DNA of 57,778 nt from a virus: the IMG/VR virus record IMGVR_UViG_3300034143_000002; one strand, written 5' to 3'. The stretch's first letter is position 1; every line of letters starts with the position of its first letter. A program made the position numbers and the translations under genes. Positions 128 to 43,250 of the stretch are shown in pieces. Under the pieces are notes generated by a model. It saw only the letters and a program-made list of their open reading frames with translations. It was not told the DNA's origin and ran no database searches.

Positions 128-1052
128 GAGTACCGGCCACCTCAGCGGTTGCCAGGTCAACAGCGTTTGAGGTCGAGCCAGAGCCGATCAGGTTGGTCGC
201 ATTCGTCGCGTTCGTTGCATTCGTCGCGTTGGTGGCCGTCGTCGCTGTCGTGGCGGTCGTCGCCGTCACAGCCGTCGTGGCGTTTGCTACCGTACCCGTC
301 ACCTTTGAGCCAGCGAGCGAAGTTATCCAAGCCGGATCAGCGTATGAGCCTGAGCTATAGAGACCGTTCGTCACGGTCGAAGCATTGCCGCTCAAGGTGG
401 CCGTGATCGTGCCTGCGCTGAAGTTGCCGGATGCATCGCGCGCCACTATCGCGCTCGCCGTGTTGGCGCTCGCCGCTGTGGTGTTTGCATTTGGCAGAAC
501 CCCATTGACTTCCCCCGTCGCCAGATCAACCGCGTCTGTGGTTGAACCGACCCCGATGAATATCGAGGCCGTGCCGGGGGTTGAGCCACCTGTACTGCCA
601 CCGGAAGAGACCGTGCCGACGTTATGCACCCTGATCGCAGCCCATGTCGTCGTGGCCGGTGAAGCAGGAACTTGGAATGATCCGAACACAGAGAACACAC
701 CGACGGGCCGACCTGTGCTGTCGAACAGGTATGCGCCAAGCTTGGCGGTCGGATTATCCGGTGAAGATTCCGTGGCGGGCACTGTGATAGCCGGGCACGA
801 TGCCTGTGTGCCTGTCACTGTGCAGGTGACTTTGCTATAGAACTTCGACGCTCGCACGTCGCTTGGGTTAGCAGCGAACACGGGCTTGCCGTCAGACCTC
901 ATAAAGTTGTTGAGCGGATATATCCTCAGCTCGAAAGTCGCTGAACTGCCCTGATAATCGCCGAAGGTCTGCGCGCCGATTGTGACCTCCTGCGCCGTCG
1001 CTGTAATGACAGAGGCCAACAGGAAGGCCAGTAGTAGAAGCACCCGTTTCAT
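1..1052 (-). CDS. Tail fibre, N-terminal part (open to window start; in frame with 53685..57778 if circular)
   Basis: Absent from ORF track (no stop in window). Manual minus-strand translation from ATG 1052 (13 nt below the stop of 1066..1752) is open to position 1. It reads MKRVLLLLAFLLASVITATAQE..., then VDLAT.EV.G.LPN..TTAASANTASAIVARDASGNFSAGTITATLSGNAS repeats as in the main fibre ORF. Confidence 0.7.
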   Translation of the reverse strand, partial: MKRVLLLLAFLLASVITATAQEVTIGAQTFGDYQGSSATFELRIYPLNNFMRSDGKPVFAANPSDVRASKFYSKVTCTVTGTQASCPAITVPATESSPDNPTAKLGAYLFDSTGRPVGVFSVFGSFQVPASPATTTWAAIRVHNVGTVSSGGSTGGSTPGTASIFIGVGSTTDAVDLATGEVNGVLPNANTTAASANTASAIVARDASGNFSAGTITATLSGNASTVTNGLYSSGSYADPAWITSLAGSKVTGTVANATTAVTATTATTATTATNATNATNATNATNLIGSGSTSNAVDLATAEVAGTLPNSKTTAASANTASAIVARDASGNFSAGTITATLSGNASTA

Positions 1053-4148: not shown

Positions 4149-4552
4149 ACGGCGCGTTCTCGCCTCTGCTGCAATGAAAGCCCGGTGGAGAACAGCTTGA
4201 TCATGAACATGTCAAAGCTGAGCGTGTGCTCTACGAACTTCGCCAGGTAATCCTGGTTATCTCGCGGGCACGTAATCCAGAAGCTGGAATTCCCTTCAGC
4301 TTTTCGTCTGACAAAGAAGTCCCAGAGATAATCAGCTCTGGATTCAATGGTGAAAGTGCCGCCCTGCGTAGAGCGATCGAGCACACCAGGCAGCACTTTG
4401 AATACAAGTTTCCATGCGCGCGTGCCTTCGCTCGACCCGACAAGCGCCGAATCTTCGTAGCCATCGCCGAAGCTGGCTTCGAGAATGTCGAAGCCGATCA
4501 CGCATGAAAGGCCGAAGGAACCGATGACCTCTAATCTCTCGTAATCCGGCAT
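4145..4552 (-). CDS. Minor tail protein, lambda gpM-like
   Basis: SFGDGYEDSA matches the RFGDGYSQRA signature of lambda gpM. Immediately follows the tape measure (1-nt overlap). Confidence 0.6.
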   Translation of the reverse strand: MPDYERLEVIGSFGLSCVIGFDILEASFGDGYEDSALVGSSEGTRAWKLVFKVLPGVLDRSTQGGTFTIESRADYLWDFFVRRKAEGNSSFWITCPRDNQDYLAKFVEHTLSFDMFMIKLFSTGLSLQQRRERAV

Positions 4553-7500
4553 CAGCTCATCCCCATGTTTCTACCCAGTTGACCGATGAAGCTGGCATCA
4601 CTGGTGCTTGTCGCGAGCACGGCTGCACCCACCGCGCCGGGATTCTCTTCCGCTCCTATCGCCAGGACTTGACCTGCCGGCATTGAGCTGATCCGTGCGA
4701 TTTGCTCAGCGAGCTGACCGAGCACTCCCATGATCGCGGTCACACCGATGCTCGAAGATCCGCCGCCATTGCTCGAAGATGAGCTTTGAGAGCCACTGCT
4801 CGCAGGAACATAGCCACCATCCAGGCGCTGCACCGGCGCGCGCGGAACAACTACAGCATCGCCGCTATTGAGCGCATCCATTGCGTCAACACCGACGCGC
4901 TCTGTGGCGTTTGAATTGAGAACGTATTCGCCGCCGTCAAGGACAGCATGAACCCAATCGCGCCCGCGACGCGCAGCATCAACAAATCCTCCCGATAGTC
5001 TTCGGACAAAATTATTTTCTTTGGACGCGGCATCGCCGTACTCTTTATTGAGGGTCAGCTTGCTGTTCTGGCCTGTGCTTTCGGCATAGGCTTGAATGAT
5101 TTCTTTCGAGGGCTCTAGCCTGATCGTTTCGAGCAAGTGTGCTTTCACCTTACCGCGCCCGAATGACTGCTCTCCGATAGCTTTTATTTCGGAGAGCGTT
5201 TTCATATCTTTCACATCAACGGCATACTCTCCCTTAATAGCTTCGCGCAGCTTTTTCTCAGTGCCATTGCGGAAGTGACGCCAGAGCAGAAGCCCGCCAA
5301 CGACAGCACCAACAGCTACAGCAGTCCACGGATTTGTTAGCAAGGGAGTGAGTGAGCTAAACATGCTGCCGCCACCAGCCGCAGCGCCGCCCGCGCCCGC
5401 TCCACCTGCTGCCGCTCCCGCTCCGCCGGCAGCAGCACCACCGCCGCCGAAGATCATGCTCATCATTCCAGCACTCGAGCCTGCCGTTGCAGCTCCAACG
5501 CCAGCGAAAGCATTTCCCGCCGCCGCCGCACCACCAGCAGCACCACCGCCGCCGAAGATCATATTCATCAAACCAGCGCTTGAACTTGAAGTGGCCGCTC
5601 CAACATTGGCAAAGGCGTTTCCACCCGCAGCCCCGCCTGCCATTGCCGGGGTTGCCGCGCCACCCCCACCGGAGTTGAAAAGGTTTTTGAAGCTGTTGAA
5701 AATGTTGCTAAGAGAGAAGCCGCCGCCCTTGCCGCCGCCGTGCCCTAACATCCGATCATTCCCTTCCTCATCCTCTGAGCGCGGGTTGAACAGCGATTGC
5801 AGATATTTACTAACCTTGCTCTTAATGAATTCTTTGACGATGTTAAGGAACAGGTCAGCGAAGCCCTTCTCAATTCGCTTGAGCATACCGATTACGCCGC
5901 CCTCGAATGAAGTCAGAGAGCTTCCTAAAATATCGCCTATGGAGTCGGAAACTTCTTTGACTTTCTCGCGGTATGCGACGAGCGGGCGCTGCATGATTTC
6001 AGCCATCTTGTTTTGATGGCCCACTTCTTCAAGCTGCATACGCTCTCTGAATAGTGCTTCTATTTCGGCTTTTTCTTGAGCCGTTTTACCTTGAAGATTT
6101 ACACTCCCCTGCGCCGCGAGAATATCTATCTGCGCTTGGCGGTTTCTTAGAATCTCACTCGCAACGTCCTGAGCTTGACGCTGTTGTTTTATGTAGGCGG
6201 GACTTGCGCCAAGCCGTTCTAGCTGGTCAATCTTCGCGTTTCCTATTGCAATCGAAAGATTGAGATTTTCCATCTCAATGCTGCGGAGTTGGTTCGCATG
6301 TTGGCGTGCGCTCTCAATATCCTTCTGCCGCCCGGCGGCGATGCGTCGGTCTGCTTCTTCCTGAGTCGCAACCTGCTTTTCGGTGATGCCCTTAATCTGG
6401 TCGTTGATTCGGCGGAATTCTTGGACGTTTACGTTCGCGGCATTTTCGATGCCTGCAATCATGTTTCCCGCCGCATCGTAAACCACGCCGACGGCTTCAA
6501 ATAAAGCCCGCTCTTCTGAGGTCAGCGCTTCAAGGCGGCGATTGAACGCCGCCGTCTGAATATCAAGAATTTTCTTCTCTAAACCCTCTTGCGTGATGAT
6601 GCGATTCTCTGCAATCGCGCGGTAGGTTTCGATTGATCGTTGATCTATACTTTCACCGATGGACAAAAGGCTCTCTTGGTGCGCGCGTAATGATTGAATC
6701 TCTGTCTTTGCCGCGTCATCATCAATCCTTTGGACGTTTCGGTTGTACTCACTGCGAGCCGCCGCCGCCTTCTCGGTCAATTCCTTAACCTGTAATTCCC
6801 TATCCCGGCCCTTTGAAAGCTTCTGCGCGGCGACAAGCTCAGCATCAACAGTCGCCAGCTTAGAATTGAGCAACGCCTGCTCCGCCTCCTTTGATTGGCG
6901 AACAAACTCATCAAGGTTGATAGATTGCTGGTCGTATGACCTCTTGGCTGCCTCTGCGGTTTCACGATAGACGCGCTCAGCAGTTTTCTGTTGAAGCTCC
7001 AAGCCCTTGATTGCGGCGCGCGTGGCGGCATCCTTTTCGGACGCGCCGCCCTTACCTCCCCCGCCGCCACCACCACCGAGCCCCGCTAGATTCACGTCCC
7101 GCACAGGCCCGCCGCCCCGCATGATCTGCTCTATCTCTTCTTTTGAAAGTTTATGACCGCCAGCGGCGCGCACGTCGCGCTCTAAGGGGTCTGCTCCTGC
7201 CGTGCGCGCAATCCAACTCCAAGCCTCTTTCGCGGTTTGTCCGGCGCGGTAAGCCCAATTAGCGATTGATTGCAGCTTGACAATCATCTCGCTTCCATTA
7301 TTGGAAACCGCCTGCAACTCAGACCTGAAAGTTGCTATGTCGCCAGTGGCTAGAGCGAAGCCCGCCGAAAGCAGATGAAGCACAGAACTTGCAAGGTAAG
7401 CGATGACAACCTGCAACTGAATGAAGGGCGCTATCAGAGTAACGATGCCGCCATACAAAACCTCGCCAGCCTTAACCACCGCGCCGATAGAATCAATAAC

Positions 7501-8883
7501 CCCTAACAAAGTTCGGTTTACAATGTCGCCTACTTCATCAACGCTTGAACCGCTGCGCTGTAACTCCGCCTCAAACCTGTTGATGTAAGCCAGCATCGTC
7601 GGCAGCATCTTCACTCCGATGTTGGCCGTAACGATTGAGAGCCTTGCTTCAAGCTCCGTCAGCTTGTCGCCAAAGGCATCGGCAGCCCGCGCGCCATCAT
7701 TCGACATAACGAGCCCCGCGTCCTTCATCCCCTTAATGAAAGCCGGAAGGTCGCCGCCCGTCTGCTTGATAAGCGCTAAAATATCCTTGCCGCCCTTGCC
7801 AAAAAGCTGCATGGCAAGGGTCGTTTGCGCGTAGCCTTCGGGCATCCGAGAGAGTACGCGGAAGGCGTCAACAAGCGCCGTCTCGTTGTCTTTGGTAGAG
7901 ATTGCAAGGCGGTCTAAGACGGCTATCTGCTTCTTGCCGCCCTGCTCCGCCTGCCCTAAAAACTTATCGAAATATCCGAGCCCTGTGGTAAGCCCTTCAA
8001 GGCTTCCGCCGCTCTGGTCGGCGGCCAATTTGAGAGCGCCCACAGTCTCCGCCGCGAAGTTGATCTTGCTTGAAGCGTCGTAGATTTCACCGCCGACCTT
8101 TGCGGAGTGCTGCGCGAGTTTGACAAAGCCAAGCCCTAAAGCCCCGACCATGAGCGTAAGGGTAGCGACAACGCCAAGCCCTACCCCCACAGGCCCGGCC
8201 CATGCTCCTATCACACCGCCGAAGCTTGTCGCTTCCGCCTTCGCTGCCGTGAGGCTCTTGGTAGTGCGGGCGATTGCGGTTTCAGCGCCCGAAGCCGCGC
8301 GCTCGGCTTGTGTAATCGCCTTCTGTGATTCACCAATTAAATTGTTTGAGTAGGTGCTAAGCCGCCGCGCCTCCTTCGCGCTCTGTGCTACCTCTTTTTC
8401 AAGTTGCGCCGGGCTGAGCCCTCGCATGTGCGACACAAGGGCGTCAACCTTTCGGGCTTCCTCTCTTTGCTTAAATTCCTCTGCCGTTAATCGCCTGATT
8501 TCTCTGGCCTGCTTTTGCTTCGTTGCGATGATTCGAGCCGATTCTTTGACAACGCTCTCCGCTTCGTGCTTTAAGCTTGCTGTAACAGAAGCGGTTGACT
8601 CCTTGACTTCTGCCGCCGCCCGCGCCGCAGACGCGCCAGAGCGCGCGTAGCTTCTATCAATCGTGATGGTAGCTTTGGCGACTTCATCCGACGCGCGAAC
8701 GGCGGCGCGCACCTGAGCGTCGGATATTCCCCCTAAGCTACCCGAACCACCAAGAGCCTTTCGGGCGCTTTTTTCCGAGTCGGCGTCTATCGCCGCGAAG
8801 GCGCTCCTGATGCGCTTCACCTCGGCTAACGGCTGCGAGCCGTCCGCTTTGATGGTTAAAGCTATGAATCTTTTTCCCGCCAT
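4552..8883 (-). CDS. Tape measure protein (1443 aa)
   Basis: Largest helical/coiled ORF in the tail module, with hydrophobic segments and a Gly/Ala-rich tandem duplication (NAFA.VGAAT..SSAG.M.MIFGGGGAA x2). Precedes the tip genes. Confidence 0.9.
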   Translation of the reverse strand: MAGKRFIALTIKADGSQPLAEVKRIRSAFAAIDADSEKSARKALGGSGSLGGISDAQVRAAVRASDEVAKATITIDRSYARSGASAARAAAEVKESTASVTASLKHEAESVVKESARIIATKQKQAREIRRLTAEEFKQREEARKVDALVSHMRGLSPAQLEKEVAQSAKEARRLSTYSNNLIGESQKAITQAERAASGAETAIARTTKSLTAAKAEATSFGGVIGAWAGPVGVGLGVVATLTLMVGALGLGFVKLAQHSAKVGGEIYDASSKINFAAETVGALKLAADQSGGSLEGLTTGLGYFDKFLGQAEQGGKKQIAVLDRLAISTKDNETALVDAFRVLSRMPEGYAQTTLAMQLFGKGGKDILALIKQTGGDLPAFIKGMKDAGLVMSNDGARAADAFGDKLTELEARLSIVTANIGVKMLPTMLAYINRFEAELQRSGSSVDEVGDIVNRTLLGVIDSIGAVVKAGEVLYGGIVTLIAPFIQLQVVIAYLASSVLHLLSAGFALATGDIATFRSELQAVSNNGSEMIVKLQSIANWAYRAGQTAKEAWSWIARTAGADPLERDVRAAGGHKLSKEEIEQIMRGGGPVRDVNLAGLGGGGGGGGKGGASEKDAATRAAIKGLELQQKTAERVYRETAEAAKRSYDQQSINLDEFVRQSKEAEQALLNSKLATVDAELVAAQKLSKGRDRELQVKELTEKAAAARSEYNRNVQRIDDDAAKTEIQSLRAHQESLLSIGESIDQRSIETYRAIAENRIITQEGLEKKILDIQTAAFNRRLEALTSEERALFEAVGVVYDAAGNMIAGIENAANVNVQEFRRINDQIKGITEKQVATQEEADRRIAAGRQKDIESARQHANQLRSIEMENLNLSIAIGNAKIDQLERLGASPAYIKQQRQAQDVASEILRNRQAQIDILAAQGSVNLQGKTAQEKAEIEALFRERMQLEEVGHQNKMAEIMQRPLVAYREKVKEVSDSIGDILGSSLTSFEGGVIGMLKRIEKGFADLFLNIVKEFIKSKVSKYLQSLFNPRSEDEEGNDRMLGHGGGKGGGFSLSNIFNSFKNLFNSGGGGAATPAMAGGAAGGNAFANVGAATSSSSAGLMNMIFGGGGAAGGAAAAGNAFAGVGAATAGSSAGMMSMIFGGGGAAAGGAGAAAGGAGAGGAAAGGGSMFSSLTPLLTNPWTAVAVGAVVGGLLLWRHFRNGTEKKLREAIKGEYAVDVKDMKTLSEIKAIGEQSFGRGKVKAHLLETIRLEPSKEIIQAYAESTGQNSKLTLNKEYGDAASKENNFVRRLSGGFVDAARRGRDWVHAVLDGGEYVLNSNATERVGVDAMDALNSGDAVVVPRAPVQRLDGGYVPASSGSQSSSSSNGGGSSSIGVTAIMGVLGQLAEQIARISSMPAGQVLAIGAEENPGAVGAAVLATSTSDASFIGQLGRNMGMS

Positions 8884-8920: not shown

Positions 8921-9203
8921 GGAATGGGATTTAATTATTTGGAGGGGTTCCGCGTTGACGCACCCCGCCAGAATGAGCATAGAATAATCAAGGATTTAAT
9001 TACTTAGAGGGTGCAACGCCCCTGCCCAAATGAATTATATAGAGCCGAATCGCATACCTTTTTGGAGGGTGTTACGCCGCAACACCTACAGCCCCGAAAC
9101 GAGCATACACGTCTCAGGAATTTAATTTTTAGAGGGTGTGAGACATTGCCCTCACGCATCTAGGGTAGGGTGTTTTGGAGTCTAATTTTTGGAGGGTGTG
9201 AGT
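8921..9203. repeat. Five degenerate tandem units (58-67 bp period) carrying the ~26-nt module-boundary motif
   Basis: Cores ATTTAATT-N-TTNGAGGGTG at ~8927-8951, 8992-9016, 9059-9075 (partial), 9117-9143 and 9179-9203. GAGGG(T/G) anchors at 8942, 9007, 9065, 9132 and 9192. Confidence 0.8.
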
Positions 9204-9458
9204 ATGAAGAATAGAAAAACGATCATCGCAGGTATGTTCCTGCTTTTGCTGTTTGTAGTCGGATGGACTGGATACGGGCAGAAGGCGGCAAGGCAGCAAT
9301 GGGAATATAAAATGCTGTACTTGCCGGATGAATCAAGCGAAGAGGCGAGCCTGAAAACTTTGAACACACTAGGCGCGGAAGGGTGGGAGGTTATCGAGTT
9401 TCACCAAAGGGGAATTGACACCTTGAGCGGTCAATATCTTTTCAAACGATCAAAATAA
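9204..9458 (+). CDS. Membrane-anchored small protein, DUF4177-like (moron-like)
   Basis: GGAGG RBS plus ATG 9204. N-terminal TM/signal IIAGMFLLLLFVVGW. WEYKMLYL...LNTLGAEGWEVIEF...YLFKR resembles DUF4177. Own hairpin downstream. Confidence 0.55.
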   Translation: MKNRKTIIAGMFLLLLFVVGWTGYGQKAARQQWEYKMLYLPDESSEEASLKTLNTLGAEGWEVIEFHQRGIDTLSGQYLFKRSK

Positions 9459-9460
9459 AT

Positions 9461-9486
9461 AAGGGGCAAAGTTCCCTCTGCCCCTT
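9461..9486 (+). terminator. Stem-loop after DUF4177-like gene
   Basis: AAGGGGCA-N10-TGCCCCTT, 8-bp perfect stem 3 nt after the stop; no clear U tract. Confidence 0.45.
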
Positions 9487-9560
9487 CCCTGCCTCGCCTT
9501 GCCGTGCTAGCCAAGCCTTACCTCGCCTGACCAAGCCAAGCCTAACCTCGCCATGCCTTG
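9482..9560 (-). repeat. Pentanucleotide-periodic array a (CNNGG units on minus strand)
   Basis: Minus strand reads caagg catgg cgagg ttagg cttgg cttgg tcagg cgagg taagg cttgg | ctag | cacgg caagg cgagg caggg aaggg. 15/15 units end in GG. Confidence 0.9.
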
Positions 9561-9566
9561 TAAAGC

Positions 9567-9782
9567 TCAACGCTTTTTCTTGCTTGCATCTTCGGTGGGC
9601 CGTCCGCCGCGATCTGGTATGAACGCTTCAACCTCGCCCCTCTTCACGAAACGGCGTCCAGCAATATCAACCGTGCTTAGCTTTGTCTGCCTAATTAAGT
9701 GATTGATGGCTTGGCGCGTTACTCCGCGAAGCTGTGCGGCCTGAGCGACTGTGAGTAGTTCGTCGGGGTCAATCTTTACCAT
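9567..9782 (-). CDS. HTH DNA-binding protein (excisionase/MerR-type)
   Basis: LLTVAQAAQLRGVTRQAINHLIRQTKL...IAGRRFVKRGEVEAF. Divergent from the cassette promoter. Confidence 0.6.
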   Translation of the reverse strand: MVKIDPDELLTVAQAAQLRGVTRQAINHLIRQTKLSTVDIAGRRFVKRGEVEAFIPDRGGRPTEDASKKKR

Positions 9783-9839
9783 GCCTCAGAGTATACACAA
9801 CCACTTTCCGCTTGACAAGAAATAAAACTAACTTACCTC

Positions 9840-9868
9840 TTGACAAACGGAAAGGGGTTCTTTATAAT
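9840..9868 (+). promoter_or_regulatory. Consensus sigma70-type promoter
   Basis: TTGACA (9840-9845), 17-nt spacer, TATAAT (9863-9868). A second TTGACA lies at ~9812-9817. Confidence 0.6.
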
Positions 9869-9906
9869 CCTTTTGTCAGTTGGAAAACAGATAAGGAGCA
9901 AATCAG

Positions 9907-10053
9907 ATGAACAGCACAACCAACAAAACGATCATCACGATTTCAACGACGGACGCCAAGCGGGTCAACAAATACGCCATCAAAAAGAGGGTAGAGCGAG
10001 ACGCCTTCGGACGCGCTCAGGTTGCGGAGTACGTGAGGGGTATTCGCCTGTAG
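9907..10053 (+). CDS. Small RHH-like regulator candidate (48 aa, below ORF-track cutoff)
   Basis: AGGAG 8 nt before ATG 9907. MNSTTNKTIITISTTDAKRVNKYAIKKRVERDAFGRAQVAEYVRGIRL has a beta-strand-then-helices pattern. Stop TAG at 10051-10053. Confidence 0.4.
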   Translation: MNSTTNKTIITISTTDAKRVNKYAIKKRVERDAFGRAQVAEYVRGIRL

Positions 10054-10062
10054 AAGCGAAAC

Positions 10063-10097
10063 GGGACAGGCGAGCGTTTGGGCCGCTCGCCTGTCCC
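10063..10097 (+). terminator. Strong GC hairpin (attenuator/terminator candidate)
   Basis: GGGACAGGCGAGCG-TTTGGGC-CGCTCGCCTGTCCC, 14-bp perfect stem between the RHH-like ORF and 10131. Confidence 0.55.
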
Positions 10098-10130
10098 TTC
10101 ACACCATTTACCACTTGAGAGGGGAAAACG

Positions 10131-10508
10131 ATGCGACAAAAGTATAACACGAAAGCGTTGCCACCGCCGGAAAGTCGGCCAGTCAGCGAATTCATCAGAG
10201 AGCCCGTCAAGGAATGGTCAACGCTTCCCATCACAGAAGAACGGGCGCAGGAACTCGTTGACCTGCTCACCGATGACCTCAACGACCACACGACGGACGC
10301 CATCATTGAGTTAATAGCGGGCATCATGCCGCAAGCGAGCCCTGACGATGAAACCGAGAGTGACAGGTGGCAAAGATTCATCGCGGGCTCTGCGGCCATC
10401 CTTCACGCCTTCCGCCACTCGTCGCGCTGTCAAAACGCGCTTGGCGACCACATCATCCACTTGAAAATCGGTAAGATTAAAGAGAAGGAAAGCGAGGGCG
10501 AGCGATGA
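10131..10508 (+). CDS. Acidic hypothetical protein A (125 aa)
   Basis: Paralogous to the next ORF (I[TS]..[ER]A.EL...D..ND.....A.I.L..GIM). ATGA overlap with it. Confidence 0.6.
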   Translation: MRQKYNTKALPPPESRPVSEFIREPVKEWSTLPITEERAQELVDLLTDDLNDHTTDAIIELIAGIMPQASPDDETESDRWQRFIAGSAAILHAFRHSSRCQNALGDHIIHLKIGKIKEKESEGER

Positions 10509-10879
10509 AAGGAGACGAAGGGAAGCTTGACGCGCTCTGGCGTATGCAGCAGATAAGGGACAAAAACGACGACTATAAAGCCATTTCGAGGGATGAAGCC
10601 GCCGAACTCGCTGAAACCATCGTTGACTATGATAACGACGTGAGAGCCCACGCCCTTATCACGCTGCTTAACGGCATCATGTGCGTTGTATTTTCAGGGG
10701 AAGGCGGGCGCTCACTCGCGGAAGATTTGGTATGGTGCGCCACGCGCCGCGCCTACACGCTGTCGCTGCATTGTAATTACTCGCTTTCTGAATTCGCCAG
10801 CTTAGACCCTAAGAACGCACGCGACAAGCGCGTGCTGGAACACGAATACGACGAGGACGAAAAGAAGGAGCAACAATAA
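10505..10879 (+). CDS. Acidic hypothetical protein B (124 aa), paralog of A
   Basis: Shared motif with 10131..10508. TAATG overlap with the 207-aa gene. Confidence 0.6.
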   Translation: MKGDEGKLDALWRMQQIRDKNDDYKAISRDEAAELAETIVDYDNDVRAHALITLLNGIMCVVFSGEGGRSLAEDLVWCATRRAYTLSLHCNYSLSEFASLDPKNARDKRVLEHEYDEDEKKEQQ

Positions 10880-11502
10880 TGTCAAATATAGTCAAAGCAA
10901 AAGTCACGATCAAAGGCGTCCGCCCGCTCTTACTCCATCACTTCGGGCCTGACGCTCTACCGCTTGAGAAGCAGGAGAAAACAGGAGTCGCCGGAAACGA
11001 CCCCGAAGAATGGCGCAAGACCGCGCTCGTCACGAAAGACGGCCAACTCTACCTAGAGCCCACATACATCTTTGCCTCTATCAGAGACGGCGCGAAGTAC
11101 ACGAAGAAAGGTAAGGGCTCAATTCAATCCACAGTGGCGGCAACGCTTCAAGTCTTGGATAACGCTGTATTGATTGACCGCCACTTTCCCGGCTTCCCTA
11201 ATGGTCATGCTTTTGATCTGGCGACGGCAGAGCCGCCGCCGCGAGACAAGGACGCGCCTGTTTACTTGGACGTTCAATCTGTGAGGAATCCGACAACCAA
11301 AGGGCGCAACGTGCGCTACCGTGTCGGAGCGTCAGTGGGATGGTCTTGCTCGTTTACGATTCTCTTTGATAAGACCATCGTTGACCGAAACACCATGCAA
11401 ACGGTGCTAGGCGACGCGGGCGTGCTTGTCGGCGTCGCTGACGGGCGCTCAATCGGCTTCGGGCGCTTCACGGTTGAGAGTTTTGAAGAGATTAAGTCTT
11501 GA
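10879..11502 (+). CDS. Hypothetical 207-aa protein with RAMP-like features
   Basis: KVTIKGVRPLLLHHFG, LEPTYIFASIRDGAKY, and the C-terminal helix plus G-rich loop VLGDAGVLVGVADGRSIGFGRFTV resemble RAMP (Cas7/Csm3-type) motifs. Unverified. Confidence 0.6.
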   Translation: MSNIVKAKVTIKGVRPLLLHHFGPDALPLEKQEKTGVAGNDPEEWRKTALVTKDGQLYLEPTYIFASIRDGAKYTKKGKGSIQSTVAATLQVLDNAVLIDRHFPGFPNGHAFDLATAEPPPRDKDAPVYLDVQSVRNPTTKGRNVRYRVGASVGWSCSFTILFDKTIVDRNTMQTVLGDAGVLVGVADGRSIGFGRFTVESFEEIKS

Positions 11503-11507
11503 GTTTT

Positions 11508-11606
11508 CCCGGCACGGCAGGGCTTGGACGGGCAGGGCATGGGTTGACTTGGAATGGCCCGGCGAGGCTTGTCAGGGCTAGGTGAGGCATGGAAGGCAAG
11601 GCAAGG
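11508..11606 (+). repeat. Pentanucleotide-periodic array b (CNNGG units)
   Basis: cccgg cacgg caggg cttgg acggg caggg catgg gttga cttgg aatgg cccgg cgagg cttgt caggg ctagg tgagg catgg | aagg | caagg caagg. 15/17 in-phase units end in GG. Confidence 0.9.
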
Positions 11607-11611
11607 TTCTT

Positions 11612-11914
11612 ATGCCAAAAAAGAGACAGCCAATAGAAATCTGGCGAGAGACGCGGCGCAGGGTGTTAGAGCGCGACGGCTATAAATGCGTCCGGCCATC
11701 CTGCGGCGCGCCCCTCACGGAAAAGACCGCACACATTGACCACATCGAATCAGGTAAAAATGCGACCAACGAAATGAGCAACTTGCGCTCGCTATGTCGG
11801 CGCTGCCATGTGCTGCGCGCCGACCCCCGGCACAGAGGCATGATTGCTGGCGCTCTCAAGGCCGGAATAATCGGCCCTGACTGGCGCTCGCAAGTTTGGG
11901 ATGATGATTCTTGA
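11612..11914 (+). CDS. HNH endonuclease
   Basis: RRRVLERDGYKCV..C......HIDHI.....N...NLRSLCRRCH. ORF-track GTG 11582 lies inside array b, so ATG 11612 is preferred. Confidence 0.8.
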   Translation: MPKKRQPIEIWRETRRRVLERDGYKCVRPSCGAPLTEKTAHIDHIESGKNATNEMSNLRSLCRRCHVLRADPRHRGMIAGALKAGIIGPDWRSQVWDDDS

Positions 11915-11919
11915 TTTTA

Positions 11920-12019
11920 CCCGGCGGGGCGAGGCGAGGTCAGGCTGCGCGAGGGTTGGCTAGGTCAGGCGAGTCTCGGCGCGGCGAGGCCCGGCAAGTC
12001 TCGGCACGGCAAGGAGGGG
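11920..12019 (+). repeat. Pentanucleotide-periodic array c (20 in-phase CNNGG units)
   Basis: cccgg cgggg cgagg cgagg tcagg ctgcg cgagg gttgg ctagg tcagg cgagt ctcgg cgcgg cgagg cccgg caagt ctcgg cacgg caagg agggg. 17/20 end in GG. Confidence 0.9.
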
Positions 12020-12035
12020 CGGCTATGCCGCCCCT
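12015..12035. terminator. GC hairpin between convergent genes
   Basis: AGGGGCGGC-TAT-GCCGCCCCT, 9-bp stem between the HNH end and the end of 12038..12391. Confidence 0.5.
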
Positions 12036-12037
12036 AT

Positions 12038-12391
12038 TCAACCCGCCAACGCCGATGCCGCAAACATCTCGAATATGGCCGTTACTCTGGCCTCATGCGC
12101 TCTCCTGTAGGCGGCTTCTATCTTATCCCACAAAATAACCAACTCCCATTCTTCGCTCGTTAGCTCATTCAAATTCAGCGGCTTTCCTGAGTTGCGCTCG
12201 TCAATCAATCGTTGTATTCGATTGACGACAGCATCTTCAAGGTTTTCCTCTGCCTTTGCGGAGTACATTTTAGGGCAGACGGGGCAAAAGCCGTCCGCAC
12301 CAGCCTGATAGAACTCGCAAGCTTCCTGACCTGGGCACTGCTCGTCTTCGGATACCGGGTTGTGTAGCTTCTCGAGGCGGGCCGCTATCAA
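12038..12391 (-). CDS. Hypothetical protein (117 aa), tail-chaperone position
   Basis: Position only (after the major tail candidate, before the tape measure once the cassette is removed). Confidence 0.45.
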   Translation of the reverse strand: MIAARLEKLHNPVSEDEQCPGQEACEFYQAGADGFCPVCPKMYSAKAEENLEDAVVNRIQRLIDERNSGKPLNLNELTSEEWELVILWDKIEAAYRRAHEARVTAIFEMFAASALAG

Positions 12392-12405
12392 CTTCGAGAA
12401 GGGTT

Positions 12406-13158
12406 CTATTTTTTTTCCTGCAACTCCAGAGCACTCGACATGTACTGCTGGATTGCCGCAGCCTTATGGTGCTTGGGTACACGTCCCCTGTAACCAGTGG
12501 CCTTCTTCTCGTCGAAGACGCGGTCGTAGAGCTTGGCGAGACGTGCCATCTTCGGCGGAATCTGCGTGTCGCTCTTTCCGAGCTTGGTGCCCTGCACGAG
12601 CCAGACCGAAGACTGAATGGCCTTGTAATCAGAGCTTTCGTCCGCGCTCGGTTTCGGGTTGCGCGGGAAATGCTCCGTATCAATCTGCTCGCCGGAGAAT
12701 AGGCAGCGCACCGTGATCGAGGAAGGCTTGCGCTTTGCACCCCAAGGAATGTTAGTGAGCTTCTTGTTGCTGGTCGGCGCGATTGCTTCGCAGGCAAGCA
12801 GAGCCTCCTCGATGACGAACTGCTTTTCGTCAGGCTCAATATGATCTTGCCAGTCTGATGGCGGGTCCTCTCCGGGCTCTCCGTAACCTTCGACGCCCGT
12901 CGCAATCTCGTTGTAAAGCTCAATCGCCCCTTCGGTCGTCGCGCTCTTCGTTTCGACGGCGTTTTTAACTGCCGCCTGACCAAGCTTCACCTCGCGTCTC
13001 ATGTCATAGCCGATAACGGCTTCGTCAGAGCATGGCCCAACAATATGCACGACTTCGCCAAAGCCCTCATCGGATTCAAATTTCACGGGGATGCGCTGGA
13101 CGGCATCTGCGTCATAGAGCACCTGATTCTGCTCTGAGTTAACTTCATCCTGGTTCAT
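12406..13158 (-). CDS. Hypothetical protein (250 aa), tail-chaperone position
   Basis: ORF track 12406..13245. GAGGAG RBS 9 nt before the internal ATG 13158 (MNQDEVNSEQ). Confidence 0.5.
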   Translation of the reverse strand: MNQDEVNSEQNQVLYDADAVQRIPVKFESDEGFGEVVHIVGPCSDEAVIGYDMRREVKLGQAAVKNAVETKSATTEGAIELYNEIATGVEGYGEPGEDPPSDWQDHIEPDEKQFVIEEALLACEAIAPTSNKKLTNIPWGAKRKPSSITVRCLFSGEQIDTEHFPRNPKPSADESSDYKAIQSSVWLVQGTKLGKSDTQIPPKMARLAKLYDRVFDEKKATGYRGRVPKHHKAAAIQQYMSSALELQEKK

Positions 13159-15752: not shown

Positions 15753-16144
15753 GAGACCGGTTTCAAAACTAATGTGTATGTGACGGCAACCTCGCCGTGG
15801 TATTGAGGCGTGACCCTCAAGATTGCATAATTCGTGTCGCCGTCGATCACTCGATCATCAATCGTCGGCATGAATTCCAGATCAATGGTGGCACATTTGA
15901 AAGTCCATTCCCGATGCGGAGCTCTCTCTTCATCAGCTTCTCTGAAGCCATCTGCCCCCGATTTAGGAAAAGGATATGTCTTATCCTTGAAGGTACCGCG
16001 TACAGGGACAACGCCATCTTCAGTCCCGTCGTTGTGTCCTTCCAGCCCGGATGTCGCGACGGCATTCCTCAGCAGCTTGATGGTGCGCCCGTAGCGCGCC
16101 ATGTGCCTCTTGGCCATCAACTGTTGTGCAGTGGGGGCGCTCAT
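15749..16144 (-). CDS. Head closure-position protein (131 aa)
   Basis: Synteny; 4-nt overlaps. Confidence 0.45.
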   Translation of the reverse strand: MSAPTAQQLMAKRHMARYGRTIKLLRNAVATSGLEGHNDGTEDGVVPVRGTFKDKTYPFPKSGADGFREADEERAPHREWTFKCATIDLEFMPTIDDRVIDGDTNYAILRVTPQYHGEVAVTYTLVLKPVS

Positions 16145-16812
16145 CCAATTGCGATCCGTTTGGAGTCAGCAAGTAGAAGCCTTGCCATCTGCGGCAGGTC
16201 TTCCGGCACCTCGCCCGCACCTTTGCCGCTTGGCGCACGTCTAATTTCCGTTGCGCCCTCAACCTTTTCCATCGTTAGACCCGGAGTGAGCATTGCCGCC
16301 GCCAAGGCGTCATTCGCCATCTTCGCCATGGTGAACCCGCACGCCACAACCACTTTCTGCGGGACACTGCTATAGCTCAGATATGTGACTTTGACCTGCG
16401 GTTCCATCACCCCTGCGAGCATTTCAAAAACCACTTCCTCGACGCCGGCTAAGGTGGCCAATTCCAGATAGTTCTCCTGGTTGTTGACGAGTACCTGCGA
16501 GACATTAAAGGAGAATTCCTGCCCGGGCCCTGTGATGAGTTGATAGCTCTGTAGCGTCATCACTGGCGGTTGGTTGACGGAGATTCGCCGCGTATGCGGG
16601 TTCCACTGATGAGTTTCAATGATCGGGGCGGGCGAGAATTCTCGCCCGCAATACGCGTCTATGGCGCGTGATGCCATTGCCGCGAGCGGCACAAGTTCTT
16701 CCGCCGTCTGACCTGCAATCGCCGTCTGCGCGCCGAAGAAAGCTGCGCGATCCAGAAAGGCTTGCGGGGCCATGTAGCAATGACCCAATACTGCGTCTGA
16801 GACTAAAGACAT
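16141..16812 (-). CDS. Head-tail adaptor-position protein (223 aa)
   Basis: Synteny after the capsid genes; 4-nt overlap downstream. Confidence 0.45.
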   Translation of the reverse strand: MSLVSDAVLGHCYMAPQAFLDRAAFFGAQTAIAGQTAEELVPLAAMASRAIDAYCGREFSPAPIIETHQWNPHTRRISVNQPPVMTLQSYQLITGPGQEFSFNVSQVLVNNQENYLELATLAGVEEVVFEMLAGVMEPQVKVTYLSYSSVPQKVVVACGFTMAKMANDALAAAMLTPGLTMEKVEGATEIRRAPSGKGAGEVPEDLPQMARLLLADSKRIAIG

Positions 16813-19601: not shown

Positions 19602-20990
19602 CTAGCCGACGCTAAGCGTGCCCGCGCGCGGCAGAGGCTGGAGGCTGTAATCCTCAAGCGCCTTCACGGCGACCTCGCTCGTAGCTTTTTCTAGCTCAAG
19701 CAATTCCGCAGCTTTCTCCGCCGCATCGAGCGCGGATGCGAGCTGCTGTGTCAATTCGGCCTTCTCTAACTCCAGAGCGGCCATCTTCGTTTCCAACTCG
19801 GCGGCTTTTGTTACGGCTTCGGCGCTCGCGGCGACTGACGCGCTCTTCATGGCTTCGTCGCCCTCGGCTTCCTTATGCGTGCATGCCGCACCGGCTTCGA
19901 CGAGGCAGTCGTGCGCCTTGTCGAGCAATCCCTGATCGGCACCGCTGTTGCGCGCTCCCGCCTTGTGCGAGAGCCCGATCACGCGCGAGACCGCGTCGTA
20001 GTAGTACCAATCGTCGTAGTAGGACGAAGTGCCCTTTTCGGCAGCTTCGGCAATCTCTTCCGCGATCCACGCCTTCATCGTCGCGGCGAACTCGTCCACG
20101 GACGTGTTGGCTTCCGTGACCAGCTCCGCCTGCGCTGCGGCATCCTTGCCGCGCGCCTCGCGACGGAGCCGCGAAACAACCGACGAAAGCGAATCAACGT
20201 ACATATAGAAGTTGTTCTGCTTGTCGTTGAGCACGTCGGCGAACATCGCCTTCGCGGCGCTCGCGCCCGGCTGTGCAGATTTGTTGTTTTCGGCACCCGT
20301 TATTTCCGCCATTACAGTCTCCTTAAAAGATTTTGCGGTCTGCACCCATGCCGTCTGATTGCAGGGAATGCCGACCATCGAGGATTCGATATAAAAGACT
20401 TTGGTGATCGTGCGACCGCCGTCCGCGCGCTTCTTCCATTCGAGAATGAGGACGGTGACGGAGACACCCAGCTTCAGCTTCGACTTCTGAAGCATGTTGG
20501 TGATCTGCACGGCGCGCGGGTTCTCGTCCGCACCCACCGGCGTGATCGAGAGATCAAGGCAGGAGAGCAGTTCATCCTGGCCCGCGATGGGGCTATATTC
20601 CTTGCGCCTGACGATCTCTGCACCGGCAACCTTCCCGTAGACATCCTCCGGCACGTCGTATTCATGATTGAGGAAGATCGTGGTGCCGACAGCTGCGGCC
20701 TTCATCTGCTCGATGGCTGAGAGGTCGAAGTCATCGCCGGATAGATCAATGGCGGTTGAGGAGGCTGTGACCGGAATCGTGCCGTCGGCGCTGGCGCTCT
20801 TAAACTTCGGAACATCGGTCGAGAAGAACTTGGCAACTGGATAACCGAGAGATTTCAGGAGCTTTCCGGCGCTCTTTTTCTGCGCCTTAGCCTCACGAAA
20901 AACGGCCTGCAAATCGAAGTCTTTGACCTCGAAATCAGGCGTCCAGCGAGGAATGGCCGTCGTGTGCTTATCTTCCGTCTCTTCGCTCAT
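19602..20990 (-). CDS. Prohead protease fused to scaffold-like coiled coil
   Basis: GTTIFLNHEYDVPEDVYGKV resembles the HK97-family protease motif. C-terminal AAELETKMAALELEKAELTQQLASALDAAEKAAELLELEK is coiled coil. Confidence 0.65.
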   Translation of the reverse strand: MSEETEDKHTTAIPRWTPDFEVKDFDLQAVFREAKAQKKSAGKLLKSLGYPVAKFFSTDVPKFKSASADGTIPVTASSTAIDLSGDDFDLSAIEQMKAAAVGTTIFLNHEYDVPEDVYGKVAGAEIVRRKEYSPIAGQDELLSCLDLSITPVGADENPRAVQITNMLQKSKLKLGVSVTVLILEWKKRADGGRTITKVFYIESSMVGIPCNQTAWVQTAKSFKETVMAEITGAENNKSAQPGASAAKAMFADVLNDKQNNFYMYVDSLSSVVSRLRREARGKDAAAQAELVTEANTSVDEFAATMKAWIAEEIAEAAEKGTSSYYDDWYYYDAVSRVIGLSHKAGARNSGADQGLLDKAHDCLVEAGAACTHKEAEGDEAMKSASVAASAEAVTKAAELETKMAALELEKAELTQQLASALDAAEKAAELLELEKATSEVAVKALEDYSLQPLPRAGTLSVG

Positions 20991-21856: not shown

Positions 21857-22024
21857 TTAATTGAGGCTAATGGACATCCAGAGACGTTCATCAACGATCT
21901 GCTCAACGCTCATTTCGCTTCGACAGTCGCCACAATCGCAGACATAGCCGGTTTTCCATGCAATCTCCTGCATCGCACCGCACACTCGGCAGTAGAGTTT
22001 AAGTCTCCGAAACCCGTTGCTCAT
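21857..22024 (-). CDS. Small zinc-ribbon protein (55 aa)
   Basis: ORF track 21857..22198 overlaps the portal gene. Internal ATG 22024 follows AAGGGAG. CRVCG...CDCGDC. Confidence 0.4.
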   Translation of the reverse strand: MSNGFRRLKLYCRVCGAMQEIAWKTGYVCDCGDCRSEMSVEQIVDERLWMSISLN

Positions 22025-37127: not shown

Positions 37128-37178
37128 CCATTTGCTCCGAATTTTTGCAGCCTCAAGCCCTGGATTTCAGCCCCATCT

Positions 37179-37206
37179 GACGAGTGACGAGTGACAAGTG
37201 ACAAGT
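37179..37206 (+). repeat. Four tandem heptamers GAC(G/A)AGT upstream of int
   Basis: GACGAGT GACGAGT GACAAGT GACAAGT, 52 nt upstream of the int start codon. Confidence 0.85.
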
Positions 37207-43233: not shown

Positions 43234-43250
43234 GGTGTATTCTTCCTCAA

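What the first reader, a model, noticed from the sequence alone, without database searches (positions are those of the whole stretch)
9482..12019. Three arrays of 5-nt-periodic CNNGG repeats bracketing the cassette genes
There are three non-coding arrays: a (9482-9560, minus orientation), b (11508-11606) and c (11920-12019). Each consists of 15-20 consecutive pentamers ending in GG (15/15, 15/17 and 17/20 in phase), such as CGAGG, CAAGG, CTTGG and TCAGG. All three share GCACGGCA(A)GG. Arrays a and b are inverted relative to each other and flank the ~1.95-kb HTH-to-207-aa block. Arrays b and c directly flank the HNH gene. Strict 5-nt phasing with degenerate units is not a normal terminator, promoter or CRISPR feature. 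Several roles are possible. It could be a binding platform for an oligomeric or ring nucleic-acid-binding protein (TRAP-type proteins read NAG triplets at ~5-nt spacing). It could form two-tetrad G-quadruplexes (GGN3)n. It could mark recombination or mobility boundaries of the cassette or the HNH gene.
Basis: seen in the sequence. Interest (0 to 1): 0.8.

Follow-up and report, generated by a model that had tools for sequence, protein, structure and literature searches.

The report
Phage VIPR locus: guide-RNA pentamer arrays
The three 5-nt-periodic "..GG" tracts are real and are the guide-RNA genes (vrRNAs) of a VIPR system, a phage-borne, CRISPR-like RNA-guided DNA-recognition system first described in 2026, here paired with its 207-aa Vipr (RAMP) protein and a small HNH nuclease.

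Summary
The 57.8-kb window holds exactly three tracts with at least 8 of 12 GG (or CC) at 5-nt phase (observed 10-11; shuffles mostly 5-7, one of 100 reaching 8), at the reported coordinates. They are not an unknown element. The adjacent 207-aa protein is a Vipr protein: its family profile hits the solved SUSP1 Vipr structure (E=3.6e-9), pairwise BLASTP gives E=7e-12, and its predicted fold is Csm3/Cas7-like. The tracts are YNNGG tandem repeats, with Y at 90%, near-zero information at NN, and fixed GG. [quoted passage not shown] The Vipr-HNH gene pair recurs in 13 of 13 viral and 59 of 64 genome loci across many phyla (GC 26-72%). Phased arrays are present in all 13 viral loci and 51 of the 64 genome loci. 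The likely mechanism, taken from the SUSP1 work, is that one Vipr protomer binds each pentamer and displays the NN bases. These read target DNA with a 1-nt skip. The conserved HNH is probably the effector nuclease. The window's own targets were not found. The G-quadruplex and recombination-boundary ideas are not supported. This is a new member of a known, very recent kind.

The parts
9461..9486 (-). Intrinsic-terminator-like hairpin plus T-run that ends the HTH-vrRNA a transcript. It overlaps the last unit of array a.
   Evidence: 11-pair stem AAGGGGCAGAGGGAACTTTGCCCCTT followed by ATTTATTTTG. The same tail and hairpin are conserved after the L002 minus-strand array.
9482..9560 (-). vrRNA a. 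Ten in-phase YNNGG units (9560-9511), a 4-nt slip CTAG, then CACGG CAAGG CGAGG CAGGG AAGGG, a conserved tail-like end.
9567..9782 (-). 71-aa HTH_17/excisionase-type DNA-binding protein. It is transcribed divergently from the vipr operon, and vrRNA a starts 6 nt after its stop codon. It is a possible regulator or second accessory protein.
   Evidence: Pfam HTH_17 E=3.3e-6. TIGR01764, E=1.2e-4, 22.4 bits, below the curated cut-off of 28.8. Homologues occur next to vipr in L001 and L062. L002 has the analogous layout of HTH plus minus-strand vrRNAs.
9790..9868 (.). Divergent promoter-like region. On the + strand, TTGACA-17-TATAAT (9840-9868, 12/12) lies upstream of the vipr operon. On the minus strand, TTGTCA-17-TATACT (9818-9790, 10/12) lies upstream of the HTH gene.
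   Evidence: These are consensus matches only, and transcription was not measured.
9907..10879 (+). Three small ORFs of unknown function (48, 125 and 124 aa) between the promoter and vipr. They are variable cargo and are not conserved in other VIPR loci. A 14-bp GC hairpin at 10063-10097 follows the first ORF.
   Evidence: No Pfam, PHROG, NCBIfam or PADLOC hits. No tblastn hits in 77 related loci. Hairpin.
10879..11502 (+). vipr gene: a 207-aa Vipr protein, a minimal RAMP with RRM core, thumb and G-loop (G181-F197).
   Evidence: Profile hit to PDB 36pp_D 'SUSP1 Vipr protein', E=3.6e-9. BLASTP against SUSP1 Vipr gives 29% identity over the full length, E=7e-12. AlphaFold2 model has pLDDT 85.7. 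Top Foldseek hits are Csm3/Cas7 subunits, E~1e-8. Matches phrog_4652.
11508..11606 (+). vrRNA b. Seventeen in-phase YNNGG units plus a conserved 3' end, CATGG-AAGG-CAAGG-CAAGG. The final AAGG lies 5 nt before the HNH ATG, so it is SD-like.
11612..11914 (+). vap (Vipr-accessory) gene: a 100-aa minimal HNH nuclease with Cys4 zinc and DH...N...H motifs.
   Evidence: Pfam HNH E=1.9e-7. HNH PHROGs. Similar to the ZorE and IscB HNH domains. Lies immediately downstream of vipr in 13/13 and 59/64 loci. Catalytic and Zn residues are at least 95% conserved in 70 homologues.
11920..12019 (+). vrRNA c. Twenty YNNGG units, 17 with GG, ending in CACGG CAAGG AGGGG.
12016..12034 (+). GC hairpin (GGGGCGGC-TAT-GCCGCCCC) that closes the operon. 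It sits between the convergent operon and the minus-strand 117-aa gene.
   Evidence: Read directly from the sequence. Analogous hairpins follow the last array in L001, L005 and L007.

Best explanation
The region 9461-12034 is a VIPR (Viral Interference Programmable Repeat) locus carried by a tailed phage, inserted between its tail-chaperone-like genes and its tape-measure gene. A consensus sigma-70-type promoter (9840-9868) would drive an operon of three small cargo genes, vipr (207 aa), vrRNA b, a 100-aa HNH accessory nuclease and vrRNA c. A divergent promoter would drive a small HTH gene followed by vrRNA a.

The following mechanism is taken from the SUSP1 and P. fulva systems and was not tested here. 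Each YNNGG pentamer is bound by one Vipr protomer. GG and Y are flipped out and held by the RRM sheet, thumb and G-loop. The protomers polymerise into a helical filament that displays the variable NN dinucleotides. The displayed NN string pairs with double-stranded DNA that carries the same NN string with one skipped base between dinucleotides (NNxNNx...). In coding targets the skipped base is usually the codon wobble position. In the characterised systems this binding silences transcription of competing phages or satellites.

In this clade the strictly conserved HNH partner with intact catalytic residues suggests that the bound target is nicked or cut. This step is an inference.

Shown here: the repeats are real. 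The protein is a Vipr homologue. The unit logo is YNNGG with hypervariable NN. The Vipr-HNH-array association is conserved across phyla. Inferred: transcription and processing of the arrays, RNP formation, the DNA-targeting rule for this clade, nuclease action, and the identity of the targets.
For: (1) Protein identity. A profile of 31 family members hits the solved 'SUSP1 Vipr protein' (36pp_D) at E=3.6e-9 across the G-loop half. Direct BLASTP against the SUSP1 Vipr ORF aligns end to end (29% identity, E=7e-12). The AlphaFold2 model (pLDDT 85.7) matches Csm3/Cas7 RAMP subunits (Foldseek E~1e-8, 125 hits at or below 1e-3). The SUSP1 residues that contact GGY (H17, D177, R138, R179) align with p207 H20, D188, R148 and R190. 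H20, R148 and R190 are invariant in the family alignment.

(2) RNA identity. Over 32 arrays and 500 units from the window and 12 viral loci, position 1 is C or T in 90%, positions 2-3 carry 0.05-0.06 bits, and positions 4-5 are G. This is the published YNNGG/GGY-NN definition.

(3) Positive control. The same phased-GG scan recovers the four published SUSP1 vrRNAs, one upstream and three downstream.

(4) Conserved association. All 13 IMG/VR loci with a p207 homologue (58-82% identity, GC 41-66%) carry phased arrays and the HNH gene. Of 64 GTDB genome loci (45-82% identity, GC 26-72%; Acidobacteriota, Armatimonadota, Chloroflexota, Bacillota, Cyanobacteria, Chlamydiota and others), 59 have the HNH gene directly downstream and 51 have arrays.

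(5) Guide-like turnover. The closest relative (L002/L041, 82% Vipr identity) keeps the flanks and the 3' end CATGG-NAGG-CAAGG-CAAGG-TTCT, but has entirely different NN content and unit number.

(6) The 1-nt-skip code appears to operate in this clade. One vrRNA of relative L001 matches the G-loop codons of other vipr genes at 21/22 NN positions, with the skipped base at the wobble position. The permutation null maximum is 19.

(7) Context. The window encodes a terminase, portal, major head protein, head-tail adaptor and tape-measure protein and has no CRISPR-like repeats. This fits the phage-borne, CRISPR-free description of VIPR.
Against: No natural target was found for the window's three vrRNAs. 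There is no self-target (maximum 63% NN match for b and c). Five seed scans of IMG/VR and one of JGI metagenomes gave only chance-level extensions.

There are no expression data. The promoters and terminators are consensus matches only.

The arrays are longer (15-20 units; up to 25 in relatives) than the 9-16 units reported. They lack the ~40-nt pseudoknotted 3' tail of the SUSP1 clade; here the conserved 3' end is only (C/T)AAGG repeats, with or without a hairpin.

SUSP1 W178, which stacks on G2, is Gly in this family.

Assignment to the paper's type III (HNH vap) is inferred from the text only, because the paper's classification tables were not available.

Thirteen of the 64 genome loci (cyanobacterial and very low-GC clostridial ones) show no array at my threshold.
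Confidence: 0.9

Rival explanations
1. The arrays act as (GGN3)n two-tetrad G-quadruplex elements in RNA or DNA, serving as structural or regulatory signals independent of the 207-aa protein.
For: The sequence formally fits GG-N3 repeats, and the G content is 45-49%.
Against: ViennaRNA with G-quadruplex energies places no G4 in the minimum-free-energy structure of any array. Stabilities equal those of shuffles (z from -0.23 to +0.40 with G4 energies). A G4 model does not predict the 90% pyrimidine after GG, the near-zero information at NN, or the tolerated GG-less units. It also does not predict the obligatory co-occurrence with a RAMP protein whose homologue binds exactly this repeat.
Confidence: 0.03
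2. The arrays are a protein sponge or platform for a ring-shaped or other RNA-binding regulator (TRAP-, CsrA- or Hfq-like), or a run of Shine-Dalgarno-like AGG/GAGG motifs that titrates ribosomes. On this reading they carry no guide function.
For: Many units read AAGG or GAGG. In 15 related loci the terminal AAGG sits 1-12 nt before the HNH start codon.
Against: No TRAP, CsrA or Hfq gene is linked to the arrays. The only universally linked genes are vipr and HNH. The conserved trinucleotide is GGY, not GGA or NAG. The NN hypervariability, together with the code-level match of a relative's array to a protein-coding target at wobble-skipping register, is expected of a guide, not of a sponge.
Confidence: 0.03
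3. The arrays are DNA-level boundaries: recombination, homing or mobility sites for the cassette or for the HNH endonuclease gene.
For: In this window arrays bracket the HNH gene and the HTH-to-207-aa block. HNH genes are often mobile.
Against: Most relatives have a single array, which may lie upstream of vipr, between vipr and HNH, or after HNH (counts 6, 30 and 33), so nothing is consistently bracketed. HNH is never found separated from vipr (59/64 and 13/13 loci). Apart from the short shared GCACGGCA(A)GG string (11 nt in a and c; 10 nt in b), the arrays in one locus differ in sequence, unlike att or homing sites.
Confidence: 0.03

Closest known systems
VIPR type II systems of Escherichia phage SUSP1 and the Pseudomonas fulva prophage (bioRxiv 10.64898/2026.04.26.720920 and .720927)
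   Same: Both have a ~20-kDa single-RRM RAMP protein with thumb and G-loop (E=3.6e-9 by profile, 7e-12 pairwise). Both have ~100-nt tracts of YNNGG repeats with fixed GGY and hypervariable NN flanking the gene. Both are two-gene core loci, phage-encoded, with no CRISPR array or cas genes. The GG-contact residues H, D, R and R are conserved.
   Different: The accessory gene here is a 100-aa HNH nuclease, not the DNA-binding vap1. The arrays abut ORF stop codons and lack the SUSP1 5' leader stem and pseudoknotted 3' tail. The tail here is (C/T)AAGG repeats, sometimes serving as the SD of the HNH gene. The arrays have 15-20 units rather than 9-16. One vrRNA is on the opposite strand behind an HTH gene. 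Vipr identity to SUSP1 is only 29%, and W178 is replaced by Gly.
Nuclease-associated VIPR types (III and V) described in the same preprint; type III is the one illustrated with an HNH vap
   Same: Both combine Vipr with a predicted nuclease accessory gene. [quoted passage not shown]
   Different: The paper reports these types as enriched in cellular defence islands and proposes a host-immunity role. Here the system sits inside the structural module of a phage genome, and 13 relatives are on IMG/VR viral contigs. This window also carries three vrRNAs. The type assignment could not be verified because the classification tables were unavailable.
Class 1 CRISPR-Cas effector backbones (Cas7/Csm3 filaments on crRNA)
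   Same: The RAMP fold is shared (top Foldseek hits are Csm3, type VII Cas7 and Cas7-11). In both, one protomer binds per fixed RNA increment and a thumb flips out bases periodically.
   Different: The increment is 5 nt with 3 bases sequestered and 2 read, against 6 nt with 5 read. The guide is itself a tandem repeat rather than a unique spacer between repeats. There are no repeat-spacer array, no Cas6, Cas5 or large subunit, and no adaptation genes.
Repeat-motif protein-binding RNAs (TRAP-binding (G/U)AG repeats; CsrB/RsmZ GGA repeats)
   Same: A short conserved motif is repeated about every 5 nt and read by many copies of a small protein.
   Different: Those RNAs are regulatory leaders or sponges with no information in the spacers. 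The motifs differ (GGY here). The partner proteins are unrelated and absent from this window.

Membership tests
VIPR (Viral Interference Programmable Repeat) system | A Vipr protein: a small single-RRM RAMP homologue with thumb and glycine-rich loop | tested here: met
   The profile hits PDB 36pp_D SUSP1 Vipr at E=3.6e-9. BLASTP against the SUSP1 Vipr ORF gives E=7e-12 over the full length. The AF2 model has pLDDT 85.7 and its top Foldseek hits are Csm3/Cas7. The G-loop G181..G185..R190..G193-x-G195-R196-F197 is invariant.
VIPR (Viral Interference Programmable Repeat) system | vrRNA genes: tandem YNNGG repeats (at least 4, typically 9-16) in the intergenic DNA flanking vipr | tested here: met
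   Three arrays of 15-20 units lie at 9482-9560 (minus strand), 11508-11606 and 11920-12019. They are unique in the window and far above shuffles. They are somewhat longer than the published range.
VIPR (Viral Interference Programmable Repeat) system | GGY conserved and NN hypervariable across related vrRNAs | tested here: met
   The logo over 500 units shows Y at 90% and NN at 0.05-0.06 bits. GG was required by the parser in most units, so only Y and NN are independent observations. The closest relative has unrelated NN content between conserved flanks.
VIPR (Viral Interference Programmable Repeat) system | Minimal locus of vipr plus one accessory (vap) gene, with no CRISPR array or cas genes, mostly on viruses or proviruses | tested here: met
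   The HNH gene lies directly downstream of vipr in 13/13 and 59/64 loci. The window has no CRISPR-like repeats. The window encodes a terminase, portal, head protein and tape-measure protein.
VIPR (Viral Interference Programmable Repeat) system | vrRNAs are expressed as ~100-nt RNAs that co-purify with Vipr | not testable with these tools
   Only promoter-like and terminator-like sites could be scanned. sRNA-seq and RNP pull-down are needed.
VIPR (Viral Interference Programmable Repeat) system | Conserved structured 3' tail after the repeat tract (a pseudoknot in the SUSP1 clade) | tested here: inconclusive
   A conserved 3' end exists: (C/T)AAGG x2-3, then a hairpin or the HNH start codon. 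There is no ~40-nt SUSP1-like tail. The paper states that array architecture varies between types.
VIPR (Viral Interference Programmable Repeat) system | NN string matches natural dsDNA targets under the 1-nt-skip rule, with no self-targeting | tested here: inconclusive
   The window has no self-target (at most 63% for b and c). No convincing target was found in IMG/VR or JGI seed scans. The rule is supported within the clade by the L001 vrRNA, which matches vipr G-loop codons at 21/22 with the skip at the wobble position.
VIPR type III (HNH-type vap) | Placement in the type III clade of the Vipr phylogeny with its vap and single-vrRNA architecture | not tested
   The paper's tree and data S4 were not available. 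The assignment is inferred from the fig. S21 legend (HNH shown among the type II, III and VII vaps), from the text saying types III-V carry enzymes, and from single arrays in most relatives.
CRISPR-Cas (class 1) | Repeat-spacer array with unique spacers, plus multi-subunit cas genes (Cas5, Cas6, large subunit, Cas1/2) | tested here: not met
   There are no direct-repeat families of CRISPR type in the window. The only RAMP is p207, and the neighbours are phage structural genes and small unknown ORFs. Rfam gives no CRISPR-DR hit.
TRAP-type / CsrA-type repeat-motif regulatory RNA | NAG or GGA motif repeats read by a linked or host TRAP/CsrA protein | tested here: not met
   The conserved motif is GGY. 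There is no Rfam match. No such protein is encoded in the cassette.

The most novel reading that the evidence does not exclude
This widespread Vipr-HNH clade may be a phage-borne, nuclease-armed form of VIPR with three features not described in the preprints.

(i) The last (C/T)AAGG units of the vrRNA double as the Shine-Dalgarno sequence of the HNH gene (1-12 nt before the ATG in 15 related loci; 5 nt in this window). Vipr loading on the vrRNA, or vrRNA processing, could therefore gate nuclease translation.

(ii) VIPR loci attack each other at the most conserved vipr codons, those of the G-loop. The attacker protects its own gene by switching to alternative six-fold Arg and Ser codons, which changes codon positions 1-2. 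The L001 vrRNA matches 21/22 on other vipr genes, 20/22 on this window's vipr, and 17/22 on its own.

(iii) Guides of 17-25 units may be used, or each array may be processed into two vrRNAs.
Probability: 0.25. Interest if true: 0.6.

Novelty: new member of a known kind. Interest (0 to 1): 0.45.

Why it matters
VIPR is a newly described RNA-guided DNA-recognition principle: a pentamer-repeat guide read two bases per unit with a one-base skip. It has been proposed to predate CRISPR. This locus shows that sequence reading alone picks out vrRNA arrays. It also adds a well-delimited, promoter-to-terminator example from an uncultured, probably Acidobacteriota-infecting phage. The survey made here shows that the Vipr-HNH-vrRNA module spans at least six phyla and GC contents from 26 to 72%, and is frequently on viral contigs. 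That bears on the preprint's suggestion that nuclease-type VIPRs are mainly host defence systems. A minimal system of a 207-aa protein, a 100-aa HNH and a ~100-nt RNA, if it cuts its target, would also be of practical interest as a very small programmable nuclease.

Tried and rejected
- Rfam (evalue mode, 9000-12500) gave only sub-threshold chance hits and no known RNA family.
- blastn and tblastn of the cassette and of p207 against 50,697 GenBank phages gave no match. The family is absent from cultured-phage records at BLAST sensitivity.
- p207 has no hit in Pfam, NCBIfam or PADLOC. It matches only phrog_4652, of unknown function.
- Self-targets were sought under skip rules 0-3. There are none; the 100% hits at skip 3 are the arrays matching themselves.
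- Targets were sought with exact NNx seeds. Seeds were b units 9-16 and 2-9, c units 7-14 and 1-8, and a units 1-9 in IMG/VR, and b units 2-11 in JGI metagenomes. Hit numbers fit chance, and extensions fell to about 25% identity outside the seed.
- Two 20/20 sub-matches looked promising. One is c units 7-16 in L028, a 35%-GC contig. The other is a units 1-10 in AT-rich L200 and L202. Both were judged to be chance, with an expected number of such events of roughly 0.1-1 given the seeds tried.
- The arrays fold no better than shuffles, and no G4 is predicted.
- p125 and p124 were tested as paralogues and are not significantly similar (E=0.46). The second 207-aa ORF at 43175-43798 is unrelated.
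- The paper's supplementary classification tables were sought in order to assign the type, but are not held.

Full report
**Observation.** The three tracts exist as described.
- Array a, read on the minus strand from 9560 to 9482, is CAAGG CATGG CGAGG TTAGG CTTGG CTTGG TCAGG CGAGG TAAGG CTTGG / CTAG / CACGG CAAGG CGAGG CAGGG AAGGG.
- Array b (11508-11606) has 17 in-phase units, 15 ending in GG, followed by AAGG CAAGG CAAGG.
- Array c (11920-12019) has 20 units, 17 ending in GG.

I scored GG or CC at twelve consecutive 5-nt steps. Only these three places in the 57,778-base window reach 8 or more, and they reach 10-11. In 100 Markov shuffles the maximum was 5-8. Tandem Repeats Finder barely registers them because only two or three of every five bases repeat. 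Each array begins a few bases after a stop codon and is G-rich in the sense of the upstream gene. Array a follows the HTH gene on the minus strand, b follows the 207-aa gene, and c follows the HNH gene.

**Conservation.** The 207-aa protein has 1,571 database relatives, annotated at best as hypothetical proteins of Pyrinomonadaceae MAGs. In 13 IMG/VR loci encoding a relative (58-82% identity, GC 41-66%), every locus carries phased GG arrays next to the gene. Every one also carries a homologue of the 100-aa HNH protein immediately downstream. In 64 loci from GTDB species representatives, 59 have the HNH gene downstream and 51 have arrays at the same stringent threshold. Those loci span Acidobacteriota, Armatimonadota, Chloroflexota, Bacillota, Cyanobacteria, Chlamydiota and others, with GC from 26 to 72%.

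**Identification.**
- A profile of 31 family members matches one solved structure, 36pp chain D, 'SUSP1 Vipr protein', at E=3.6e-9 over the C-terminal half including the glycine-rich loop.
- This led to two 2026 preprints. They describe VIPR systems as a ~20-kDa ancestral RAMP protein (Vipr), one accessory gene (vap), and ~100-nt vrRNAs. The vrRNAs are made of 9-16 YNNGG repeats in which GGY is conserved and NN is hypervariable.
- In those systems one Vipr protomer binds each repeat, sequesters GGY and displays NN. The NN string pairs with dsDNA while skipping every third target base.
- I retrieved the SUSP1 locus (KT454805.2). My phased-GG scan finds its four published vrRNAs, one upstream and three downstream. 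The window's 207-aa protein aligns with SUSP1 Vipr over its full length (29% identity, E=7e-12).
- The AlphaFold2 model (pLDDT 85.7) has a Csm3/Cas7-like fold (Foldseek E~1e-8).
- The SUSP1 residues that hold the two guanines and the pyrimidine (H17, D177, R138, R179) align with H20, D188, R148 and R190. H20, R148 and R190 are invariant in the family. W178 is Gly here.
- Over 500 units from 32 arrays, position 1 is C or T in 90% and positions 2-3 carry 0.05-0.06 bits. That is the YNNGG signature.

**Anatomy of the locus.**
- A perfect TTGACA-17-TATAAT lies at 9840-9868 on the + strand, facing a 10/12 match on the minus strand at 9818-9790.
- Plus-strand unit: three small ORFs without relatives in other VIPR loci (48, 125 and 124 aa), then vipr (10879-11502), vrRNA b, the HNH gene (11612-11914), vrRNA c, and a GC hairpin (12016-12034).
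- Minus-strand unit: a 71-aa HTH_17/excisionase-type protein (9782-9567), vrRNA a, and a hairpin with a T-run (9486-9461).
- The nearest relative, L002/L041, has the same layout with different cargo genes and two minus-strand vrRNAs.
- The whole cassette sits on the strand opposite to, and inside, the phage's structural module. That module comprises the terminase at 24198-26009, portal at 21999-23432, major head protein at 19602-20990, adaptor at 16141-16812 and tape-measure gene at 4552-8883.
- The window has no CRISPR-like repeats.

**Differences from the characterised type II systems.**
- The accessory gene is a minimal HNH nuclease. Its Cys4 zinc ligands and DH...N...H residues are at least 95% conserved in 70 homologues. 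Its domain resembles those of ZorE and IscB.
- The arrays directly abut ORFs. They end in two or three (C/T)AAGG units rather than a long pseudoknotted tail.
- Of 71 arrays classified in related loci, 33 lie after HNH, 30 between vipr and HNH, 6 upstream of vipr, and 2 on the opposite strand.
- In 15 loci the terminal AAGG lies 1-12 nt before the HNH start codon, so it probably doubles as the ribosome-binding site. In this window it lies 5 nt before the start codon.
- The arrays here have 15-20 units, and up to 25 in relatives.
- The preprint's text and the fig. S21 legend imply that the HNH vap belongs to type III. The preprint describes that type as enriched in cellular defence islands. I could not verify the type because the tables are not held. 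In this window and in 13 IMG/VR contigs the module is viral.

**Targets.** Under the published 1-nt-skip rule, the window's guides have no self-target (at most 63% NN match for b and c). They also have no convincing target in the sequence I could reach. Five exact-seed scans of IMG/VR and one of JGI metagenomes returned hit numbers and extensions expected by chance. What this phage aims its VIPR at remains unknown.

The code does seem to operate in this clade. The vrRNA directly after vipr in relative L001 matches the G-loop codons (ADGRSIGFGRF) of other vipr genes at 21/22 NN positions (L042, L072, L078, L084). It matches this window's vipr (11436-11468) at 20/22. In each case the skipped base falls at the wobble position. 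It matches its own gene at only 17/22, because that gene uses AGA/AGG for Arg and AGC for Ser, and has Val in place of Ile. The permutation null had a maximum of 19 in 200 trials. Because 5-nt units are being compared with 3-nt codons, this match cannot result from sequence duplication.

**Rival readings.**
- RNA folding gives no excess stability and no G-quadruplex, even with G4 energies.
- No Rfam family matches.
- No TRAP- or CsrA-type partner is encoded in the cassette.
- The arrays do not consistently bracket anything in relatives.

**Verdict.** The finding is real and correctly delimited, and its strangeness is explained. It is a VIPR locus consisting of Vipr, an HNH accessory nuclease and three vrRNAs. 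The kind was published in April-June 2026, so this is a new member of a known kind. It has some clade-specific features worth following up.

Noticed in passing
L001 4625-4690 (IMGVR_UViG_3300045837_000213), matched against window 11436-11468 and L042 5561-5593: A relative's vrRNA decodes, under the 1-nt-skip rule, to the G-loop codons of other vipr genes. It matches 21/22 NN in L042, L072, L078 and L084, and 20/22 in this window's vipr. It matches its own vipr at only 17/22 because of alternative Arg and Ser codons. This looks like VIPR-versus-VIPR targeting with self-avoidance by recoding. The permutation null maximum is 19/22.
   Followed up: partly
L004 4597-4661 matched against L004 930-968 (minus strand): A 13-unit vrRNA matches a site 3.6 kb away on its own viral contig at 22/26 NN, with the skipped base in wobble phase of an open frame that runs off the locus. 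None of 300 permutations reached this score. It is a possible self-regulatory target, whereas the preprint reports no self-targets at or above 80%. The gene was not identified.
   Followed up: partly
window 11593-11614 and 15 related loci: The last (C/T)AAGG units of the vrRNA that precedes the HNH gene lie 1-12 nt before its ATG. They are therefore the likely Shine-Dalgarno sequence, and Vipr occupancy or vrRNA processing could control HNH translation.
   Followed up: partly
window 10063-10097: A 14-bp GC-rich hairpin (GGGACAGGCGAGCG...CGCTCGCCTGTCCC) lies just after the 48-aa ORF and before the 125-aa ORF. It could be an internal attenuator or a processing site. A sub-threshold Rfam PtaRNA1 hit on the minus strand (E=0.53) is probably chance.
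   Followed up: no
window 9204-9458: A small membrane-anchored DUF4177/Sp36-family protein is encoded convergently with vrRNA a and shares its bidirectional terminator.
   Followed up: no
window 192-278 and 56686-57659: 9-nt periodic (GTCGTCGC-like) repeats occur at both contig ends, with a 240-nt tandem duplication at 56710-57167 inside a 1330-aa minus-strand ORF. The contig may be circularly permuted with a repetitive fibre-like gene spanning the ends.
   Followed up: no
window 41554-41645 and 37178-37206: These are tandem short repeats in apparently non-coding DNA. (CTGTCT)n and an 11-mer TGCTAGCAACT x3.7 occur at 41554-41645. TGACAAG x4 occurs at 37178-37206, just after a 406-aa ORF. They could be iterons or operator-like sites.
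   Followed up: no
L087-L093, L103 (Nostocales) and L082, L083, L102 (Clostridia, GC 26-28%): These loci have vipr-HNH pairs but no YNNGG array at my threshold of 8/12. They may use the variant repeat consensus (NNNNG or YNNNG) mentioned in the preprint, or may have lost their vrRNAs.
   Followed up: no
Method note on bioRxiv 10.64898/2026.04.26.720920, section 27: The preprint applies a cut-off of at least 80% NN match to type III and V guides against IMG/VR. For 13-unit guides this is expected to be met by chance thousands of times in a database of that size. This is my binomial estimate. In my 3.5-Mb test set, skip rules 0, 1 and 2 all gave 5-9 guides at or above 80%.
   Followed up: partly
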